Source: an uncultured Planctomycetaceae bacterium
GTDB lineage: Bacteria > Planctomycetota > Planctomycetia > Pirellulales > Pirellulaceae
DNA length: 64,000 nucleotides
Reading direction: 5' to 3'
Assembly (NCBI GenBank): GCA_963758085.1
Contig: CAVWUB010000004.1
Span: 334,259 to 398,258 of the forward strand
In this document: in pieces, positions 5,520-47,306 of the stretch
Numbering within the stretch: the stretch's first letter is position 1
Layout of the letters: every line of letters begins with the position of its first letter
Notes under the pieces: model-generated
Told to the model about the DNA's origin: nothing
Seen by the model: the letters and a program-made list of their open reading frames with translations, nothing else
Database searches by the model: none
Position numbers and translations under genes: made by a program

Positions 5520-5588
5520 TTAGCAGATTTGTTGCCGGATCTCTCTCGAAGGTTCTTCCGCGAGGCAGGTAACCCGGCTGATAACACG

Positions 5589-5724
5589 CTTGGGTGGCAC
5601 GCTCAGAGACCCAGCGATAGGCGTGAGCGGCCGGAGTAGAAGATCTGGAACGACCAGACATGGTGTGGTAGCCACGCAGTTCCATCCAGCACGCCCTTCG
5701 TTCCCCAGGGACGTGCCACCCGCA
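5589..5724 (+). repeat. Conserved ~130-nt structured element, copy 1 of 3 (candidate sRNA or MITE-like)
   Basis: The 5' end is cttGGGTGGCACGCTCAGAGacCCAGCGATaGGCGTGaGCGG and the 3' end is CAGCACGCCCTTCGTTCCcCAGGGACGTGCCACCCg. The 10-nt terminal inverted repeat is GGGTGGCACG/CGTGCCACCC and there is an inner GGGCGTG/CACGCCC pairing. It is near-identical to the segments at 18356-18488 and 45946-46080. Confidence 0.7.
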
Positions 5725-5885
5725 GGCTCACAATTCTCGCGCCCATGAGCCTTGAAGATCTCGGAAGAATCCTCTCGGAACTCTCCCCGGGCAGAACTCG
5801 AGCATGAACCGGCCCCTAGAACGCGAAAAAAAAATCGCCGAATCCGTTTTTTGGCACTGCTCTTGTCGGTTTGCGCAGCGGCCAC

Positions 5886-5915
5886 TTGACGCAAACGGCA
5901 GACGGTTCCTATCCT
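5886..5915 (+). promoter_or_regulatory. Putative sigma70-type promoter for tRNA-Thr
   Basis: TTGACG (5886-5891), an 18-nt spacer and TATCCT (5910-5915) sit about 20 nt upstream of the tRNA 5' end. The same TTGACG -35 hexamer precedes tRNA-Ala. Confidence 0.4.
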
Positions 5916-6047: not shown

Positions 6048-7378
6048 GTGGCCAACCAAGTCGATACCCAGGTGGATCTGCGGGAGCTTGTGGTCGCTAA
6101 CCAATCGTTCGGCCCTGCCGAAGTGGCAGCGATCCGTCAAGCGATTGTGGATAATCATCTCCATTTCATCGAACTGCGCGATGCGGTCGGCGAATTGGAA
6201 GACGATCCGGGGTTGACGCCGGCAGCGAGAACCAAGCTGGGCGTTTGCCTGTACTTGCTCGGCCGGTACAAGGCGGCCAGCGAGACACTCGCGCATGCCG
6301 ATGGCGGCGCGATGGCCCTGTTTTATTCGGCCCGCTGCGCTTTGGAGATGGGCGACTATCAGGGCGCGATCGAGCGCTACGAGCAGGCGCGGAAATCAGG
6401 CTACGACGGCGATCACTGCTTGTTAGGAATTGCCGAAGCCCATCGCTACCAGGGCAACCTGCAGGAAGCGATGAACATTCTGGACAACATGTTCGGGCCG
6501 ATCGAGCAGACCGCCAACTATTTGACTCAGCGTGCCGCCACTGTCTCGGCGATTGGCGGAAACCTGTCGGAAGCGATCGCACTCTACGAGCGCGCGGTGC
6601 AAACCGACAAAAATCATTCTGGCGCGTTGTTTGGTCTGGCATCGAAAACGACCGTCAGGGCAACGACGAAGAGGCACTGGCTCTTTACGAGCGGGCAGCG
6701 AACACCTTCCCGACCGGACTCGGGGCACTGCTGAACCTCGGCGTGTTCTACGAAGACAACAACCAGTACGACAAAGCACAGGTTTGTTATCGGCGGATTC
6801 TCGATGCGTTCCCCGATCATAAACAGGCGCTGCTGTACATGAAGGACGCTTCGGCGTCCGGCAATATCCTCTACGACGAAGAAACGCAGCGTCGCAACGA
6901 CCGTTTGGCTCAGATTCTCAACCAACCGGTCAGCAACTTCGAGTTGTCGGTTCGCAGCCGCAATTGCCTGGCGAAGATGGGCATCGAGACGATCGGGGAC
7001 CTAACGCGAACCAGCGAAGCGGAACTGCTGAGCAGCAAGAACTTCGGCGAAACCAGCTTGTATGAGATTCGCGAGGTGCTCTCGAGCAAAGGATTGTCGC
7101 TTGGCCAGTTCGCCAACGAACGCAAATCGAGCGATCCGCCGATCGACACGTCCCACATGTCGCCGGACGAACAGGCACTGTTGGATCGTCCGATCGCTGA
7201 TTTGAATCTGTCGGTTCGGGCTCGCAAGTGCATGGTCCGCTTGGGCATCAATACGATTGGCGAATTGATCCGCAAGACTGGCGACGACATGCTGGAGTGC
7301 AAGAACTTCGGTGTGACGAGCTTGAACGAGGTGCGTGAGAAGCTTGCGGCTCTCGGATTGAAGATGCGGGGCGACTGA
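6048..7378 (+). CDS. TPR-repeat protein with two tandem RNA polymerase alpha C-terminal-domain (alpha-CTD)-like modules. There is an apparent +1/-1 frameshift near 6620-6660.
   Basis: TPR-like repeats (LGRYKAASE..., [20 protein letters not shown]) lie in frame 0 up to ~6640. TPR ([15 protein letters not shown]...[23 protein letters not shown]) continues in frame 2, so the two ORFs 6048-6734 and 6245-7378 most likely belong to one gene. The C-terminus has two copies of [20 protein letters not shown]...[22 protein letters not shown], closely resembling E. coli RpoA alpha-CTD ([20 protein letters not shown]...[22 protein letters not shown]). Confidence 0.6.
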
Positions 7379-7394: not shown

Positions 7395-8525
7395 GTGTCA
7401 TCATTTGTCTTTCAACTCCGCCACACCGATGCAGGTTGTGGCGCACGTCGCGGCGTTTTCTCAACGCCGCGTGGCGACGTGCAGACTCCGGCGTTCATGC
7501 CGGTCGGCACCCAGGGCTCCGTCAAGGGCCTGACCATCGAGCAAGTGCGGCAGAGCGGCGCTCAGATGCTGCTGGCCAACACTTACCACTTGGCCCTGCG
7601 GCCCGGCCATGAACTGGTCCGCAAGCTTGGCGGCTTGCATGCGATGATGCGCTGGGATGGCCCGATCCTCACCGACAGCGGTGGGTTTCAGATCTTCAGC
7701 CTCGGGGAACTCAACAAGGTCACCGAAGAAGCAGCGACCTTCAAAAGTCATCTCGATGGGGCAGTCATTCGGCTGACTCCGGAATATGCGATCGAGATCC
7801 AGGAGGCGCTGGGCAGCGACATCGCGATGGTCCTGGATCACGTGGTCGCCCTGCCCAATTCGCCTGAAGTGATCATCGATGCGGTGCAGCGAAGCGTGCG
7901 CTGGGCGGCACGTTGTCTGGCGGCCTCCAATCGCGACGATCAAGCATTGTTCGCAATTGTGCAAGGCGGACTCGACGAGACGCTTCGCCGGCAATGCGCG
8001 GCGGAGCTGGCGGTGATGGATTTTGAGGGCTTCGCGGTCGGCGGCCTGAGCGTTGGTGAGCCGCCCGAGGAGATGTACCGCATCACCGCCGCGACAACGC
8101 CGGAACTTCCAGTTGACAAGCCGCGGTATCTGATGGGCGTGGGCCGACCGATCGATCTGCTGGAGTCGATTGCCCGCGGGATCGACCTGTTTGATTGCGT
8201 GATGCCGACTCGCAATGGCCGCAACGCGATGGCGTTCACCTCGACCGGACCAATCAAAATCCGCAACGCCAGCCACCGCGAGGACACCCTGCCACTCGAT
8301 CCCGAGTGCCCGTGTGTGGCCTGTCAGCACAGCCGCGGCTACCTGCGACACCTGTTCATGGCCAACGAGATGCTCGGCCCGATCCTGCTCTCCCTGCACA
8401 ACCTGACGTACTACCAACGGCTGATGGCCACCGCTCGCCAAGCGATCGAGCAAGATCGGTTTGGGGAGCTGTTAGGGCATCACCGGGAGTTGTGGAAGCG
8501 CGGAACGGTAGCAGGTAGCAGGTAG
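7395..8525 (+). CDS. tgt: Queuine tRNA-ribosyltransferase (tRNA-guanine transglycosylase)
   Basis: [25 protein letters not shown]...[13 protein letters not shown]...[13 protein letters not shown] and the zinc site [16 protein letters not shown]. Confidence 0.85.
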
Positions 8526-8662
8526 CAGGTAGCAGGTGGACGGTGGACGGTGGACGGTGGACGGAATTCTGTATTTGCCGTGAGCGGTTGGTCGAGATCA
8601 AATTCCGCAACCCGCAACCCGCAACCCGCAACCCGCAACCCGCAACCCGCAACCCGCAACCC
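8506..8662. repeat. Cluster of heptanucleotide microsatellites: (GGTAGCA)x4, (GGTGGAC)x3, (CCGCAAC)x7-8
   Basis: Read directly: ggtagcaggtagcaggtagcaggtggacggtggacggtggacgg, then after ~40 nt ccgcaacccgcaacccgcaacccgcaacccgcaacccgcaacccgcaacccg. It lies in the tgt-serC intergenic region. Confidence 0.9.
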
Positions 8663-8840
8663 GTTCTGCTTCGATCGGCGGAGCGATCGACCGCTCTGCA
8701 ACCCCCAACCAACCGCGGCACGGTTCCGCAGTTGAGCCTGGGCCGATAGAATCCTGGGCGCATGTTTTCTGCCACCTGCGGACGCGATGCTGACCAGTCG
8801 CTCTGCATGTCCCCCAACCCGCAACGCTCGGATAGCCTCC

Positions 8841-18355: not shown

Positions 18356-18488
18356 TTTGGGTGGCACGCTCAGAGCCCCAGCGATGGGCGTGGGCGGCAG
18401 GAGCAGATACCGAGTCGATGCGACATTTCCCGGTTGCGAAGTAGTTTTCCCAGCACGCCCTTCGTTCCTCAGGGACGTGCCACCCGAG
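18356..18488 (+). repeat. Conserved ~130-nt structured element, copy 2 of 3
   Basis: ctttGGGTGGCACGCTCAGAGCCCCAGCGATGGGCGTGGGCGG ... CAGCACGCCCTTCGTTCCTCAGGGACGTGCCACCCg. The termini are the same as copy 1 and the central ~45 nt diverge. Confidence 0.7.
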
Positions 18489-18733
18489 GGATCAGGACAC
18501 CCGCCCCAAGTGACGTCACGACATTCGTGGATAAAGCTGATATCAGCGGGCGGACTTCAGCTGGCAAGGCGTCATGTTAGAATCGCCGCCCGTTAGACAT
18601 GCCGACGCATCGGGCGCTGCCGACCATCGCTCCGCGCTGCCGAGCCAGCGACCCGCGAACCCGAGCCATCACGACGCGCGTCCTGTCCATAGCGCTGCGT
18701 TTTCCAAATCAACCACTGCCCTGCTTCATCACC

Positions 18734-21592
18734 ATGCCCCGATACAACCCCGCCGAAATCGAACCTCGCTGGCAGGCCTATTGGCAGCAGCACAAGACCT
18801 TCGCCACGGCCGAGATGCCTGACCTGAGCCGCGGGGGCAAGAAACGCTATATCCTGGACATGTTCCCGTACCCCAGCGGCGATGGGCTGCACGTCGGGCA
18901 CCCCGAAGGTTACACCGCCACCGACATTACATCGCGGTACGGGCGGATGCGCGGCGACAGCGTGCTGCACCCAATGGGCTTCGACGCCTTTGGACTGCCG
19001 GCGGAGGAACATGCGATTCGCACTGGCGAGCATCCGCGCGTGCAGACCTATCGCAACATCGAGACGTTCACGCGCCAGCTCAAAATGCTCGGTTTCAGTT
19101 ACGACTGGGACCGGACGATCGCGACCACCGACGAAGCCTACGTTCGCTGGACCCAGTGGATTTTCCTGGTGTTGTACGACACCTGGTTCGACACGCAGGC
19201 ACAACTGGGGCGGCCGATCGCCGAGCTGCCAATCCCGCCGGAAGTGTCGCTGCAGGGCGAAGACGCGGTTTCACGTTACCAGGACGCGCACCGCTTGGCC
19301 TATCAAGACGACGCTCTGGTCAACTGGTGTCCGGCCTTAGGAACCGTGCTGGCCAATGAAGAAGTGATCGACGGCAAGAGCGAACGCGGCTCGCATCCGG
19401 TTCAGCGGATCCCGCTGCGACAATGGATGCTGCGGATCACTTCTTACGCCGAACGGCTGCTCGAGGGGCTCGACGACCTGGACTGGCCGGCGGGAATTAA
19501 GAAGCTGCAACAGGACTGGATCGGCCGCAGCAGCGGCGCTGAAGTCGACTTCTATATCGGCGGCGCGGAGAGTTTCGAGTCCTGGAAGATCCTCCGCCAA
19601 GACGGTCCGCTGAACGACCCGCCACCGGCAGACGTGCTGCGCGTTTACACGACGCGGCCCGATACGTTATTCGGGGCGACCTACATGGTGATCGCGCCGG
19701 AACATCCATTGGTCGATGTGCTGACCGCTGCCGAGCAAACCGCCGAGGTCCGCGCGTATCGCGAGAAGGCGTCGTTCAAGAGCGACCGCGAACGAACCGA
19801 AGGTGATCGGCAAAAGACCGGCGTGTTTACCGGCAGCCATGCGATCAACCCGGTCACGGGAAAACCGATCCCGATCTGGGTCGCCGATTATGTGCTGGCA
19901 ACCTATGGCACCGGGGCGATCATGGCGGTCCCGGCGCACGACGACCGCGACTTCGAGTTCGCCGTCCAGTTCCGATTACCGATTATCCCGGTGGTCGATC
20001 CGCCGGCGGATTTCGAGCAGCGCGACCAGGTGCTCGCCGGCAAGGCCTGCTTTATCGGCTCCGGCAAAGTGATCAACAGCGGCGACTTCGATGGCCAGGA
20101 CAGCGACAGCGTGAAGTCCGCGATCACCGACCAACTCGCTCGTGAAGGGCTGGCGCGCGGAGCGGTGAATTACAAGCTGCGCGATTGGCTGTTCAGTCGC
20201 CAGCGGTTCTGGGGCGAACCGTTCCCGATCCTGCACGAGCTCGACACCCAGGGCAATCCAACCGGAGCAAAGCGGGCGGTGCCGGATGAGCAGTTGCCAG
20301 TCCTGCTGCCGGAACTCGCCGACTTCAAACCGCATGGTCGTCCCGAGCCACCGCTGGAAAAAGCGAGCGACGCGTGGCTGTATGTGACGATCGACGGCGT
20401 GCGTTACAAACGTGAAACCAACACGATGCCGCAGTGGGCCGGTTCGTGCTGGTACTACCTCCGCTACATCGATCCGAAGAACGATGCGGCGCTGGTCGAT
20501 CCGGCGAAGGAAAAAGCCTGGATGCCGGTCGACCTGTACGTCGGCGGGGCGGAGCACGCGGTGTTGCACCTGATGTATTCCCGCTTCTGGCACAAGGTGC
20601 TCTACGACCGCGGCCACGTCAGCACACCCGAGCCGTTCGGCAAGCTGGTCAATCAAGGGATGATCCTTGGCGAAGTGGAATTCACCGGCTACCAGAGCGA
20701 GGCCGGCCAATGGGTCTCGGCTCAGCAGTTGCGCCGCGACGCCGACGGCAATCGCGTCGATGCCGCGGGCAATGCCGTCTCGGCGGTGAAGGTTGACGAA
20801 GACGATGTGGAAAAGAGTGGCGAGGGATTTGTGCTCAAGGCCGACCCGTCGATCCGCATCGACAGCCGGGCGCACAAGATGTCCAAGAGCCGTGGCAACG
20901 TCGTCAATCCCGATGTCGTCGTCCGCGAGTACGGCGCCGATTCGTTGCGGCTGTATGAGATGTTCATGGGGCCGCTGGAGGCGACGAAGCCTTGGAGCAT
21001 GACCGGCGTCGGCGGCGTACGCAGCTTCCTCGACCGCGTGTGGCGGATGATCGTCGATGACCGCGCCGACGAGATGCAGCTTGCTGATGCCGTTGTCGAC
21101 ACACCGTGTGACGACGAACAGGCTCGCATGATGCACTTGACCATCAAGCGAGTTACCGAGGACATCGAGTCGATGAGTTTTAACACCGCGATCGCGCGGA
21201 TGATGGAGTTCACCAACTTCTTCACGCGCTGCGAACAGCGGCCGCGCGAAGCGATGGAGACGATCGTGGTTCTGCTGGCTCCGTACGCGCCACATATCGC
21301 TGAGGAGCTATGGCAACTGCTGTGCGGCGGCGATATTTCCGAGCGCGGCTGCGTGTCGCTGCAACCTTGGCCGGTCTGGGACGAAGCGGCCTTGGTTCAG
21401 AGCGCGATCGATTTGCCGGTTCAGATCAACGGCAAGGTGCGTGGCAAGATCAGCGTGTCGCCCGATGCCGATGAAGCGACGGTATTGCAGACCGCTCGCG
21501 AGGATGAGCGGATTGCGAAACTGATCGAAGGCAAGCAACTGGTCAAGTCGATCGTCGTGCCACAGCGGCTGGTCAACCTGGTGGTGAAGTAG
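18734..21592 (+). CDS. leuS: Leucyl-tRNA synthetase
   Basis: The class I HIGH motif (HVGHPEGY) and KMSKS ([12 protein letters not shown]) are present and the protein has LeuS-length architecture. The start is placed at [14 protein letters not shown], because the upstream in-frame extension overlaps the repeat element. Confidence 0.9.
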
Positions 21593-40629: not shown

Positions 40630-40740
40630 GACCTTCTATTTCAGGTGCATTCGGGATCGCTGCGGCGATAGGCGGCAGGGAGCAAGAGGAATGAGGCGTT
40701 CACGATAGCTCAGAGTGAGACGGTAGGCGAGGAGCGGGTG

Positions 40741-40775
40741 GCGGGAGAACGGAGGACGGTGGACGGTGGACGAGG
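40741..40775. repeat. GGACGGTGGACGGTGGACG heptamer repeat (same unit as at 8536-8560)
   Basis: Read directly: ggaggacggtggacggtggacgagg, at the 3' end of the YihY-family gene. Confidence 0.8.
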
Positions 40776-45790: not shown

Positions 45791-45945
45791 TTAGTGGAGA
45801 CTGCGTCCATTGCTTTGGTGATTTTCATATTGGTGCTAAAAAATGATGGATTCACTGGACGTTATGAGATATCAATTGATCTCGCAGGTATCAATAACCT
45901 GGTGCTTCCGCGAATTGCGTGGCAGGCAACCCGTCAGGTAAACCT

Positions 45946-46080
45946 CTTGGGTGGCACGCTTAGAGCCACAGCGATGGGCGTGGGCGGACAGAGTTAACTT
46001 CCCGAACGACCAGCCATGCTGTGGTAGCCACGCCGTTCCCTCCAAGACGCCATTCGTTCCTCAGGGTCGTGCCACTTGAG
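45946..46080 (+). repeat. Conserved ~130-nt structured element, copy 3 of 3
   Basis: ctcttGGGTGGCACGCTTAGAGCCACAGCGATGGGCGTGGGCGG ... ACGCCATTCGTTCCTCAGGGTCGTGCCACTTg. The 3' terminal repeat is CCACTT instead of CCACCC, which still pairs with 5' GGGTGG through G-U pairs. Confidence 0.7.
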
Positions 46081-46206
46081 AGTTCAAAGCCCGCACCCCA
46101 TGCGCCATCAAAAGCCCGGAAGAACCAAAATCTCAACCGCTCCGTTGCCCCGTGTCCCACAACTCCAATGGGACACAGGGGCAGCGGATGGCTGATTGCA
46201 TACAGC

Positions 46207-47306
46207 TTAGAACTCGCCGACAATCAATCCATCATTGATGGAGTAGAGTCGCTGATAAATGCCATAACCCTCGCCACGATTTGGACGCTCGAAGGCGCTG
46301 GCCGCGTTGACCCATGCAGTCGCCGTGTGCTGGACGAACTCCGAGACGAACCGGACCGATCCGTCGGCAAACCCAAACGTCGCACCTCCGGGGTGCTGGC
46401 TGCTGGCGGTGCGGTGCGGCTGCGGGTTTCCTTGGTCCTGGGTCCAGTTAATCGCCCACTGGCCATTGACCATCAGCGCATTGGTCGCACCGGACGCGTA
46501 CTCCGCAATATCCTTGCCTGCATAGATCCGGGACCGGTTGCGACCATTGGCATCCATCTCCCATTTGGTTTCAGCAACCATGATGGTATTGGTCGAGCCA
46601 TCGAGGATGTCACGTAGACCGACGGCCGGCCCGCGGTTGTTGCGGCAGAATACACCGTTGAACCGGCCGGCGGCCGGTTCGCGCCGACCGCAGCTCCTGC
46701 CCAGCCGTCGTAGGCACTGCCGGCACCTTGATAACTGCTTGTCGCCGAATTCGGTATGGCGCCGTCGTTCCACTGCGGCGGCTTGGTATCAGAGGGGCAG
46801 CTGAACAATGCCAGGGGTGTCTGGCACACCTCACGGTTTCGTGTGATCGTATTCTCGCCCGCGGGGTACCTGGGATCAAAGCGATCGAACTGATTGCCTT
46901 GTTCAATGAAGTGCAGCAAGCCGGTGGCCCAACCAAAACCTGATCCGCCTTCGGCATTGAGCCGATTGCCGTCAAAATCTCCACGGTAATCGTGACCGAT
47001 CGGAAACTTATTATGAGTATCGTGGTAGTTGTGCAGTGCCAGCCCGATGTTCTTAAGGTTGTTACTGCACGACATCCGCCGCGCCGCCTCACGAGCCGAT
47101 TGCACAGCCGGCAACAGCAGTCCGACCATCACGCCAATGATGGCGATCACGACCAGGAGTTCGACGAGCGTGAAACCGCTAGAGCAATGGCTGGCTGAGT
47201 GCCGTGGTGGCTGTGACGATGGGATCGGCCTCGGCTTGCGCGTCGTCGAAGGTTTGACCGGGGCAGTATCGAGATAGTACCGCCGTTGAGTTGCATTCCA
47301 TTTCAT
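46207..47306 (-). CDS. DUF1559 / prepilin-type N-terminal cleavage-methylation domain protein, with a frameshift near 46680-46770
   Basis: [53 protein letters not shown] is in ORF 46473-47306. The typical C-terminus NTIMVAETK...[16 protein letters not shown] is in the overlapping ORF 46207-46773 in another frame. Confidence 0.7.

What the first reader, a model, noticed from the sequence alone, without database searches (positions are those of the whole stretch)
5589..5724. Conserved ~130-nt structured element present three times in the same orientation: candidate sRNA family or MITE
Three intergenic segments (5589-5724, 18356-18488, 45946-46080) share a near-identical ~40-nt 5' arm (GGGTGGCACGCTCAGAGCCCCAGCGATGGGCGTGGGCGG) and a ~35-nt 3' arm (CAGCACGCCCTTCGTTCCTCAGGGACGTGCCACCC) around a more variable ~45-nt centre. 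The arms contain a 10-bp terminal inverted repeat (GGGTGGCACG/CGTGCCACCC) and an inner 7-bp pairing (GGGCGTG/CACGCCC), which predicts a long imperfect stem with internal loops. Copy 3 ends CCACTT instead of CCACCC. That still pairs with 5' GGGTGG, but only through G-U pairs, which work in RNA and not in DNA. This hints at selection on an RNA structure rather than on a DNA transposon end. All three copies are on the + strand and lie in 5' or intergenic regions (after cls and before tRNA-Thr, before leuS, and before the DUF1559 cluster). I could not assign the element to any known RNA family from memory.
Basis: seen in the sequence. Interest (0 to 1): 0.7.

Follow-up and report, generated by a model that had tools for sequence, protein, structure and literature searches.

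The report
Small mobile DNA repeat, not sRNA
The three "structured elements" are the hairpin-forming middle of a miniature, non-coding transposable element (MITE) that has inserted into intergenic DNA of this planctomycete genome, an ordinary kind of selfish repeat and not a new RNA gene.

Summary
The three copies are real, at the stated coordinates, and far beyond chance. They are not the whole element. Copies 1 and 3 are the centres of 221- and 226-bp units (5551-5771, 45901-46126). These units are bounded by terminal inverted repeats GGYTCTTCCGC…GCGGAAGARCC and flanked by 8-bp direct repeats (copy 1: CTCTCGAA/CTCTCGGA). Across related metagenomic copies, 5 of 7 full units have 7/8-matching flanking octamers; 0 of 4830 random pairings reach that. 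Close relatives have the same cls–tRNA-Thr and DUF1559–downstream-gene spacers without the element, so these are empty sites. Ends and duplication length match ISL3-family insertion sequences and their MITEs. No Rfam family matches. Forty family members show 0 compensatory changes in 25 predicted pairs. Orientation relative to genes is random, and both strands occur within single contigs. The G·U argument is explained by C→T changes in a C-rich arm. Verdict: an undescribed MITE family of Pirellulaceae-like planctomycetes. One thing remains unexplained.

The parts
5551..5771 (+). Copy 1, full MITE unit (221 bp) between the cls stop and the tRNA-Thr promoter-like site
   Evidence: Terminal inverted repeats GGTTCTTCCGCGAG... 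/ ...CTCGGAAGAATC. The orthologous spacer in L128 lacks the element.
5543..5550 (.). Copy 1, left target-site duplication CTCTCGAA
   Evidence: Matches 7/8 with 5772-5779. L128 has a single CGCTCGGA at the corresponding place, within 1781-1795.
5772..5779 (.). Copy 1, right target-site duplication CTCTCGGA
5592..5721 (+).
18359..18485 (+). Copy 2 hairpin core (5' arm 18359-18397, 3' arm 18454-18485). It is an old copy, and its outer terminal repeats are no longer recognisable.
   Evidence: The orthologous filled site in L040 has arms that are 39/39 and 30/30 identical. The element is absent upstream of leuS in L132, L133 and L134.
45901..46126 (+). Copy 3, full MITE unit (226 bp) between two minus-strand genes
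   Evidence: Terminal repeats GGTGCTTCCGCGAA... / ...CCCGGAAGAACC. The syntenic locus L135 has a 179-nt spacer without the element, against 418 nt here.
45893..45900 (.). Copy 3, decayed left target-site duplication AATAACCT
   Evidence: Matches only 4/8 with 46127-46134. Each copy matches 6/8 to the single AAGTTTTT (reverse strand) at the empty site in L135, within 1519-1533.
46127..46134 (.). Copy 3, decayed right target-site duplication AAAATCTC
45949..46077 (+). Copy 3 hairpin core (5' arm 45949-45987, 3' arm 46046-46077, ending CCACTT)

Best explanation
[quoted passage not shown] A full unit is about 220-240 bp, encodes nothing, and begins and ends with about 25-bp terminal inverted repeats (GGYTCTTCCGCnGATTnnAnTGGC ... 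GCCACGAAATTCGCGGAAGAACC). I infer that an ISL3-family DDE transposase encoded elsewhere in the genome binds these ends, moves the element, and inserts it at a staggered 8-bp cut whose repair produces the flanking 8-bp direct repeats. Copies 1 and 3 are such insertions into intergenic DNA. Copy 2 is an older insertion whose outer ends have decayed. There is no evidence that it reflects selection on an RNA fold. Shown here: the terminal repeats, the target-site duplications, the empty sites in relatives, many copies in many genomes in both orientations, and the absence of covariation. Inferred: the identity of the transposase (from the end sequence and the duplication length) and mobilisation in trans.
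For: Extent: the flanks of copies 1 and 3 and of about 15 metagenomic relatives align 45-60 nt beyond the core and end in mutually complementary termini. Target-site duplications: the octamers abutting the termini match 7/8 in 5 of 7 full copies that carry the core (window copy 1, L032, L055, L123, L124). In 4830 mismatched pairings, 0 reach 7/8 and 0.17% reach 6/8. L088 and L065 also give 7/8 by eye. Empty sites: L128 (Cls 92% identical) has a 196-nt cls-tRNA-Thr spacer against 415 nt in the window. The window aligns to it end to end once the MITE and one duplication copy are removed, and L128 has one CGCTCGGA at the junction. L135 (syntenic DUF1559 / CarboxypepD_reg / flavoprotein) has 179 nt against 418 nt and no element at nhmmer E<=10. 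Both strands occur within L110 and L112. Orientation relative to flanking ORFs is +E+ 6, -E- 5, +E- 7, -E+ 5. ISL3 link: published ISL3 ends are ISArsp7 IRL/IRR GGCTCTTCGCGGTTGGTGGTGAAT / GGCTCTTCGCGTTTCGTGGTGAAT with an 8-bp direct repeat (PMC6305408). A Microcystis MITE with GGCTCTTCG ends and 8-nt repeats has been attributed to ISL3 transposases (PMC11448079). Our right end aligns as GG.TCTT-CGCG---TTTCGTGG (shuffle p 0.0015; p 0.016 beyond the first 8 nt). A second, coreless 175-bp MITE with GGTTCATCCGG ends and a 7/8 octamer duplication sits in the same contigs (L083, L020). Against RNA: see the rival explanations.
Against: No transposase gene with matching ends was found in the window or in about 750 kb of fetched loci, so the partner is inferred. 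Similarity to ISL3 ends is concentrated in the first 8-11 nt, and the left end shows nothing beyond that. Other IS families also make 8-bp duplications. Copy 3 has only a 4/8 duplication, and L120 has 1/8. Copy 2 has no recognisable termini. The most conserved part of the unit is the internal arms, not the termini, which is unusual for a MITE, although my search pattern selected for intact arms. The arms of copy 2 are identical in an orthologous copy from a genome about 85% identical, while the adjacent intergenic DNA is about 55-70% identical. Simple decay of a dead transposon does not predict this.
Confidence: 0.85

Rival explanations
1. The 130-nt core is itself a separate mobile module, nested inside the ISL3-type MITE. 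It would be a Tn3-derived miniature element (TIME-like) whose roughly 38-bp arms are transposase-binding ends. It would have been captured by, or inserted into, several different repeat backbones. This complements the best explanation and does not exclude it.
For: The arms are about 35-39 nt, the length of Tn3-family ends. TIMEs are defined by 38-bp Tn3-type inverted repeats and 5-6-bp duplications (PMC4133298). The Tn3 IR sequence GGGGTCTGACGCTCAGTGGAACGAAAACTCACGTTAAG, recalled from memory, is present exactly in at least 5000 plasmids, about 110 nt from blaTEM. The left arm shares 19/38 positions with it, including GGGGT and ACGCTCAG at the same positions (p 0.002; run of 8, p 6e-4). The reverse complement of the right arm shares GGAACGAA within 1 nt of its Tn3 position (the shuffle test allows offsets of -1 to +1; p 9e-4). 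The same arms occur in several settings: with different centres (12 to about 400 nt); as a perfect palindrome (type C, about 33 cases); alone (L008, L017, L039, L071 and others); back to back in permuted order (L001, L004); and inside at least one other backbone with different outer repeats (GGAGGTCGTACAGCTTT, L099).
Against: There is no 5-bp duplication signal at the arm ends: 3/88 perfect against 0.6% in the null, and those cases are driven by shared flanks. The inner TAAG that I recall as typical of Tn3-family ends is absent. No Tn3-type transposase was found among the 28 of 31 ORFs of at least 800 aa that were scanned; leuS and two ORFs of 1770 and 2044 aa were not scanned. The window MITE has no match in the plasmid collection. 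TIMEs are usually single-copy. The similarity was noticed after the fact, against a single remembered sequence.
Confidence: 0.3
2. The element, or its arms, has been taken over by the host and is kept by selection for a function in place. Candidate functions are a protein-binding DNA site, an mRNA-stabilising or attenuating hairpin as proposed for ERIC/REP, or a sigma-54-like TGGCACG-N4-GAGC site.
For: Copy 2 and its orthologue L040 have identical arms (39/39 and 30/30), while the outer ends and neighbouring intergenic DNA have diverged. The arm sequence is nearly invariant across copies from many environments. The 5' arm contains GG-N10-GC in the spacing of a sigma-54 promoter, as the sequence shows directly.
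Against: Ascertainment: every fetched locus, L040 included, was found by an exact pattern in the 5' arm, and the 3' arm was then required to be within 4 mismatches. The other orthologous pairs are too close to be informative, and in L047/L110 the element is the least conserved stretch. Copies 1 and 3 are absent from close relatives, so they are dispensable. Orientation relative to genes is random. No consistent promoter-like or terminator-like site was found. Gene conversion among hundreds of copies could also keep the arms uniform.
Confidence: 0.1
3. It is a family of small or cis-regulatory RNAs whose long imperfect stem is maintained by selection on RNA structure.
For: The + strand consensus contains G-U pairs (AGCGA/UCGUU and CUC/GGG) that would be A-C on the other strand. 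Single-sided changes give 9 wobble pairs against 2 A-C. Copy 2 folds with z = -3.5.
Against: No Rfam 15 match was found, even at E<=10. RNAalifold on 40 copies gives 25 pairs with 0 compensatory changes, a covariation term of +0.19 kcal/mol, and no conserved structure in the centre. The 3' arm is about 64% C+A at paired positions, so most transitions there give wobble pairs by composition. Reverse strands fold as well as forward strands. Orientation relative to genes is random and mixed within contigs. In the type C subfamily the internal loops vanish because the second arm is the exact complement of the first. Target-site duplications and empty sites show spread at the DNA level.
Confidence: 0.04
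4. It is a REP/REPIN-type repeat spread by a RAYT (IS200-like tyrosine transposase).
For: Each arm can fold on itself (CACGCUC/GGGCGUG). The arms occur singly, as inverted doublets and in clusters, as REPs do. REP superfamilies have been reported in Planctomycetes (PMC3733652).
Against: The window copies have terminal inverted repeats and 8-bp duplications, which HUH-type REP spread does not produce. No GTAG or CGTC tag sits at the end of the arms in the window type, as the sequence shows. The arms, at 35-39 nt with a 14-nt loop, are unlike the compact GC-rich REP stems. No RAYT was looked for or seen.
Confidence: 0.03

Closest known systems
ISL3-family-derived MITEs (for example the Microcystis aeruginosa MITE with GGCTCTTCG ends and 8-nt direct repeats, PMC11448079) and ISL3 insertion sequences such as ISArsp7 (PMC6305408)
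   Same: Non-coding and about 0.2 kb. The terminal inverted repeats start GGYTCTTC(C)GCG. Target duplications are 8 bp, insertions are intergenic, and there are many copies.
   Different: There is no sequence similarity outside the termini. The host is a Pirellulaceae-like planctomycete. The unit carries a strongly conserved internal hairpin core that is shared with other repeat backbones. The cognate transposase has not been identified.
[quoted passage not shown] 2014, PMC4133298)
   Same: The core has two inverted arms of about 38 nt around a variable centre and folds into a long stem-loop. The arms share two 8-nt blocks with the Tn3 end, at the same or an adjacent position.
   Different: No 5-6-bp duplications were found at the arm ends. 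The inner TAAG is missing. Copy number is high, whereas TIMEs are usually single-copy. No Tn3-family transposase was found. The core sits inside another element.
ERIC/IRU, Correia and RUP elements (bacterial intergenic imperfect palindromes of 100-160 bp)
   Same: They are multicopy intergenic imperfect palindromes that can fold as RNA when co-transcribed. Size variants arise from internal insertions and deletions.
   Different: There is no sequence relationship. The duplication length and termini are different. Effects on transcripts have not been tested here.

Membership tests
[quoted passage not shown] | Short (under about 500 bp) with no coding capacity | tested here: met
   The units are 221 and 226 bp. 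Only short overlapping ORFs of 45-124 aa cross copy 1, on both strands, and none is conserved. A small downstream ATG ORF differs in length and sequence between copies.
[quoted passage not shown] | Terminal inverted repeats | tested here: met
   GGYTCTTCCGC... / ...GCGGAAGARCC at the ends of copies 1 and 3 and of the relatives. Not met for copy 2, whose ends have decayed.
[quoted passage not shown] | Target-site duplication of fixed length | tested here: met
   The 8-bp flanks match 7/8 in 5 of 7 full copies, against 0 of 4830 random pairs. Copy 1 matches 7/8 and copy 3 matches 4/8.
[quoted passage not shown] | Presence/absence polymorphism at orthologous sites (empty sites) | tested here: met
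   Copy 1 against L128. Copy 3 against L135.
[quoted passage not shown] | An autonomous partner with the same ends that encodes the transposase | tested here: inconclusive
   No pair of matching ends encloses a transposase-sized ORF with a duplication, either in the window or in the fetched loci. The rest of the 2.89-Mb source contig could not be read.
ISL3-family derivative | Ends resembling ISL3 inverted repeats (GGCTCTT...) | tested here: met
   Compared with the published ISArsp7 ends and the Microcystis ISL3/MITE ends. The first 8-11 nt match at both ends, and the right end also shares TTTCGTGG (p 0.016).
ISL3-family derivative | 8-bp target duplication | tested here: met
ISL3-family derivative | DDE_Tnp_ISL3 transposase in the same genome acting on these ends | not testable with these tools
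TIME (Tn3-derived miniature element), for the 130-nt core | About 38-bp terminal repeats homologous to Tn3-family ends | tested here: inconclusive
   19/38 and 16/36 identities, with two 8-nt runs at the same or an adjacent (±1 nt) position. The inner TAAG is absent. Only one reference end was compared.
TIME (Tn3-derived miniature element), for the 130-nt core | 5-6-bp target duplication at the ends of the repeats | tested here: not met
   Most of the cores tested sit inside larger shared backbones, so few independent insertions were sampled.
TIME (Tn3-derived miniature element), for the 130-nt core | Tn3-family transposase available in the host | tested here: inconclusive
   None was found among the 28 of 31 ORFs of at least 800 aa that were scanned in the fetched loci and the window. 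The three not scanned were leuS and two ORFs of 1770 and 2044 aa. Whole genomes were not searched.
Structured non-coding RNA family | Match to a curated RNA family | tested here: not met
   Rfam 15, at the gathering threshold and at E<=10.
Structured non-coding RNA family | Compensatory base changes that support the fold | tested here: not met
   0 of 25 pairs, with a covariation term of +0.19. The alignment is biased towards intact arms.
Structured non-coding RNA family | Consistent orientation or position relative to genes, and a discrete transcript | tested here: not met
   Orientation is random. No expression data are available, so the existence of a transcript could not be tested.
REP/REPIN | GTAG- or CGTC-tagged short palindromes, no target duplication, and an associated RAYT | tested here: not met
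   The window-type arms carry no tag, as the sequence shows. Duplications are present. RAYT was not tested.

The most novel reading that the evidence does not exclude
The 35-39-nt arms (GGGTGGCACGCTCAGAGC-N2-4-AGCGATGGGCGTGG and its partner) may be a functional cassette and not transposon ends. They could be a binding site for a host or element-encoded protein, or an RNA/DNA hairpin. In this reading, selection keeps them intact in place, and at least three different mobile backbones across Pirellulales have picked them up and spread them. The MITEs would then act as vehicles for a conserved regulatory or structural module.
Probability: 0.1. Interest if true: 0.6.

Novelty: new member of a known kind. 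Interest (0 to 1): 0.25.

Why it matters
For annotation, these segments should be masked as a mobile repeat. They should not be reported as sRNA candidates or as leaders of leuS, tRNA-Thr or DUF1559 genes. The family appears to be undescribed: there is no literature hit for the sequence, no plasmid match and no Rfam match. It is abundant in planctomycete metagenomes, so a consensus would help repeat masking, assembly (many contigs end in it) and strain typing. If the shared core proves to be a Tn3-type module nested in ISL3-type and other backbones, it would be a clear case of mosaic non-autonomous elements outside Proteobacteria. If instead the core is under selection in place, it would be more interesting.

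Tried and rejected
- **Rfam.** I searched the window, each copy at E<=10, and seven related loci. Only tRNAs and noise were found.
- **Viral contigs.** The scan gave one chance hit inside a coding region.
- **Self-cleaving ribozyme.** The permuted order in L001/L004 suggested a circularly permuted ribozyme such as hammerhead or twister. I rejected this because there is no Rfam hit, the type C copies have no internal loops, and lone arms exist.
- **Integron attC site, retron, 6S-like rod.** All rejected on context: there are no arrays of cassettes and no reverse transcriptase, and the element is multicopy with duplications.
- **Conserved small ORF downstream (ATGAGCCAC...).** This stretch turned out to be the right-hand terminal repeat, complementary to the left end.
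- **5-bp duplications at the core ends.** No signal.
- **Full-length IS bounded by the same ends.** Only chance pairs were found.
- **Clustering of 1050 ORFs from the loci to find a recurring transposase.** None was found.
- **Pfam scan of large ORFs for a Tn3 transposase.** None was found among the 28 of 31 scanned. One call failed on a size limit.
- **Coreless copies of the same backbone.** None was found in the fetched loci, although the sample is biased.
- **Other orthologous pairs as a test of conservation in place.** The pairs are too similar to be informative.
- **Source record look-up by exact protein.** The proteins are not on record.
- **Plasmid collection.** No match.
- **Promoter and terminator scans.** Nothing consistent within the elements.

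Full report
**Observation.** The three segments are present as described. The 39-nt 5' arm occurs three times with at most 3 mismatches, against none in 100 shuffles. Both arms are recovered as three-copy direct-repeat families. A profile built from 40 relatives finds only these three copies in the 64-kb window. Each copy folds into the predicted rod: a 10-12-bp outer stem, CUC/GGG and GAG/CUC, AGCGA/UCGUU, and a 7-bp inner stem. The z-scores are only -2.5, -3.5 and -1.0, and the reverse strands fold about equally well.

**The element is larger than reported.** Copies 1 and 3 remain similar for about 45-55 nt on either side of the reported segment. I scanned public collections with a degenerate 5'-arm pattern. 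Aligning the window-type copies with their flanks shows a unit of about 220-240 bp whose two ends are complementary: GGYTCTTCCGCnGATTnnAnTGGC... and ...GCCACGAAATTCGCGGAAGAACC. In the window the units are 5551-5771 and 45901-46126. Copy 2 has no recognisable outer ends.

**Target-site duplications.** The eight bases immediately outside the termini repeat each other:
- window copy 1: CTCTCGAA / CTCTCGGA
- L124: CTCATTTT / CTCCTTTT
- L032: GTTTTAGG / ATTTTAGG
- L055: CTGACAAC / CTTACAAC
- L123: TGCCGGAT / CGCCGGAT

Five of seven full copies score 7/8. Among 4830 mismatched left/right pairings none reaches 7/8 and 0.17% reach 6/8. L088 and L065 give 7/8 as well. Copy 3 scores 4/8.

**Empty sites.**
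- *Copy 1.* The closest available relative for the cls locus is L128, whose Cls is 92% identical. It has cls followed by tRNA-Thr(CGU) with a 196-nt spacer, against 415 nt in the window. The window spacer aligns to it end to end once the 221-bp unit and one octamer are removed. L128 carries a single CGCTCGGA at the junction.
- *Copy 3.* L135 has the same gene order (DUF1559, CarboxypepD_reg-like, flavoprotein). Its spacer is 179 nt against 418 nt, and it has no element at nhmmer E<=10. Its single AAGTTTTT matches each of the two diverged octamers of the window at 6/8.
- *Copy 2.* It is shared with the syntenic contig L040, which is about 85% identical over 10 kb. It is absent upstream of leuS in L132, L133 and L134, which keep the conserved TAGAAT promoter-like block lying downstream of copy 2.

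**Which transposon family.** Published ISL3-family ends begin GGCTCTTCGCG and make 8-bp duplications (ISArsp7, PMC6305408). A Microcystis MITE with GGCTCTTCG ends and 8-nt repeats has been attributed to ISL3 transposases (PMC11448079). The right end of our family aligns to the ISArsp7 IRR as GG.TCTT-CGCG---TTTCGTGG, with p 0.0015 overall and 0.016 beyond the first eight bases. The left end matches only in the first 8-11 bases. A second 175-bp MITE with GGTTCATCCGG ends, a 7/8 octamer repeat and no core lies in L083 and L020. This shows that such elements are active in these genomes. No partner transposase was found in the DNA I could read.

**Tests of the RNA reading.**
- Rfam 15 gives nothing at the gathering thresholds or at E<=10.
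- RNAalifold on 40 distinct window-type cores predicts only the arm pairings: 25 pairs, none with a compensatory change, a covariation term of +0.19 kcal/mol, and no consensus structure in the centre.
- Single-sided changes give 9 wobble pairs against 2 A-C. However, the 5' arm was fixed by my search pattern, and the paired positions of the 3' arm are about two-thirds C or A. Transitions there therefore give wobble pairs by composition. The CCACTT end of copy 3 is two C-to-T changes.
- Orientation relative to the nearest long ORFs is even (6, 5, 7 and 5 across the four arrangements).
- L110 and L112 carry copies on both strands within a few kb.
- Copy 3 is antisense to both of its neighbours.
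- No consistent promoter-like or terminator-like site lies in the elements.

**The core remains partly unexplained.**
- a 95-nt form with a different centre, some copies inside a backbone with outer repeats GGAGGTCGTACAGCTTT (L099);
- an 80-nt perfect palindrome in which the second arm is the exact complement of the first, with its own asymmetric flanks (about 33 cases);
- a minimal 80-nt form (L003);
- arms in permuted order (L001, L004);
- lone arms;
- tandem arrays of whole cores (L118, L021);
- tandem micro-duplications of the arm tips (L094, L033, L115, L109, L036).

The duplication junctions fall at short direct repeats such as GCGATGG. This points to slippage at a hairpin-forming repeat. 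The arms have the length of Tn3-family ends. The left arm shares GGGGT and ACGCTCAG with the Tn3 end at the same positions, and the right arm shares GGAACGAA within 1 nt of its Tn3 position (the test allows offsets of ±1). The core may therefore be a Tn3-type miniature element (TIME; PMC4133298) nested in other elements. Against this, there is no 5-bp duplication at the arm ends, the inner TAAG is missing, and no Tn3-type transposase was seen among the 28 of 31 large ORFs scanned.

One further point is not predicted by simple decay. In the one informative orthologous pair (copy 2 and L040), the arms are identical (39/39 and 30/30) while the adjacent DNA is about 55-70% identical. L040 was itself found through its 5' arm. 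Other pairs are too close to be informative, and in L047/L110 the element is the least conserved stretch. Gene conversion among many copies or selection in place could both explain the identical arms.

**Mechanism.**
- *Shown:* terminal inverted repeats, 8-bp duplications, precise presence/absence at two loci, many copies in both orientations, and no coding capacity.
- *Inferred:* an ISL3-family DDE transposase encoded elsewhere binds the ends and inserts the unit at a staggered 8-bp cut, and the hairpin is a by-product of the inverted-repeat design.

**Novelty.** No paper in the held library contains the arm sequence. None of the papers I read describes such an element in Planctomycetes. The plasmid collection has no match. 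I rate this a new member of a known kind. It is of practical use for annotation and of modest biological interest. The shared core is the one thread worth pulling.

Noticed in passing
window 8507-8663: Three adjacent perfect heptamer tandem arrays: GGTAGCA x4.4, GGTGGAC x4.3 and CCGCAAC x8.4. They lie at or just past the end of the ORF 7395-8525. A similar GGTGGAC-rich stretch is at 40733-40772.
   Followed up: partly
window 46208-47306 (minus strand): The DUF1559 gene next to copy 3 looks frameshifted. The ORF 46476-47306 (277 aa) is covered only about 60% by homologues of about 335-365 aa. The conserved C-terminus ...[11 protein letters not shown] is read in another frame that ends near 46208.
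   Followed up: partly
window 18545-18575 and 18734: A promoter-like block TTCAGC-17-TAGAAT upstream of leuS is conserved in L040, L132, L133 and L134. The conserved LeuRS start is the ATG at 18734 (952 aa), whereas the public record P0121 calls a 997-aa product from 18599.
   Followed up: partly
window 5886-5915: A sigma-70-like TTGACG-18-TATCCT lies upstream of tRNA-Thr(CGU). It is conserved in L128 and lies downstream of the MITE.
   Followed up: no
L083:6268-6442 and L020:8465-8639: A different 175-bp MITE. It is a near-perfect hairpin (-101 to -110 kcal/mol) with ends GGTTCATCCGG...CCGGATGAACC and a flanking octamer match of 7/8 in L083. It lacks the conserved core.
   Followed up: partly
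L001:2195-2290 and L004:5507-5630 (Pirellula sp. JTS-AC113): The two arms occur in permuted order: 3' arm, a 30-57-nt spacer, then the 5' arm. This forms a repeat of about 120 nt shared by two contigs, followed by unrelated sequence.
   Followed up: partly
L118:4803-5300, L021:3480-3891, L109:2869-3181, L036:1575-1840, L094:2985-3030, L115:5960-6230: Tandem arrays of whole cores (period about 151 nt), of the 3' arm (periods 55-61 nt), or of the arm tip (GTGTGGCAC x5; CCTCAGAGCGTGCCACCCAATT x3-4). The junctions fall at short direct repeats, which suggests replication slippage or unequal exchange at the hairpin.
   Followed up: partly
L020:4137-4216, L097:8787-8866, L107:2423-2502 and about 30 others: An 80-nt perfect palindrome subfamily (GGGTGGCACGCTCAGAGCGYAGCGATGGGCGTGG-loop-complement). 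It has conserved asymmetric flanks: about 70 nt (...GTTGCAGGCAAACAAG...CACTGTGTAT) on one side and TGAATAATCCGGGCT on the other. Its true ends were not determined.
   Followed up: no
L099:290-520: A 95-nt form of the core sits inside another backbone with outer inverted repeats CCTGGGAGGTCGTACAGCTTTTGC...GAAAGCTGTACGACCTCCATGG. L116 has the same layout with concerted changes in both outer repeats (AGGCCGTCTCACTTT / AAAGCGAGACGGCCT).
   Followed up: no
window 6245-7378: The gene after tRNA-Thr encodes a TPR protein with two RNA-polymerase alpha-CTD-like repeats. Its orthologue in L131 has 443 aa and hits PF03118, so the start of the window ORF is probably upstream of the TTG that was called.
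   Followed up: no
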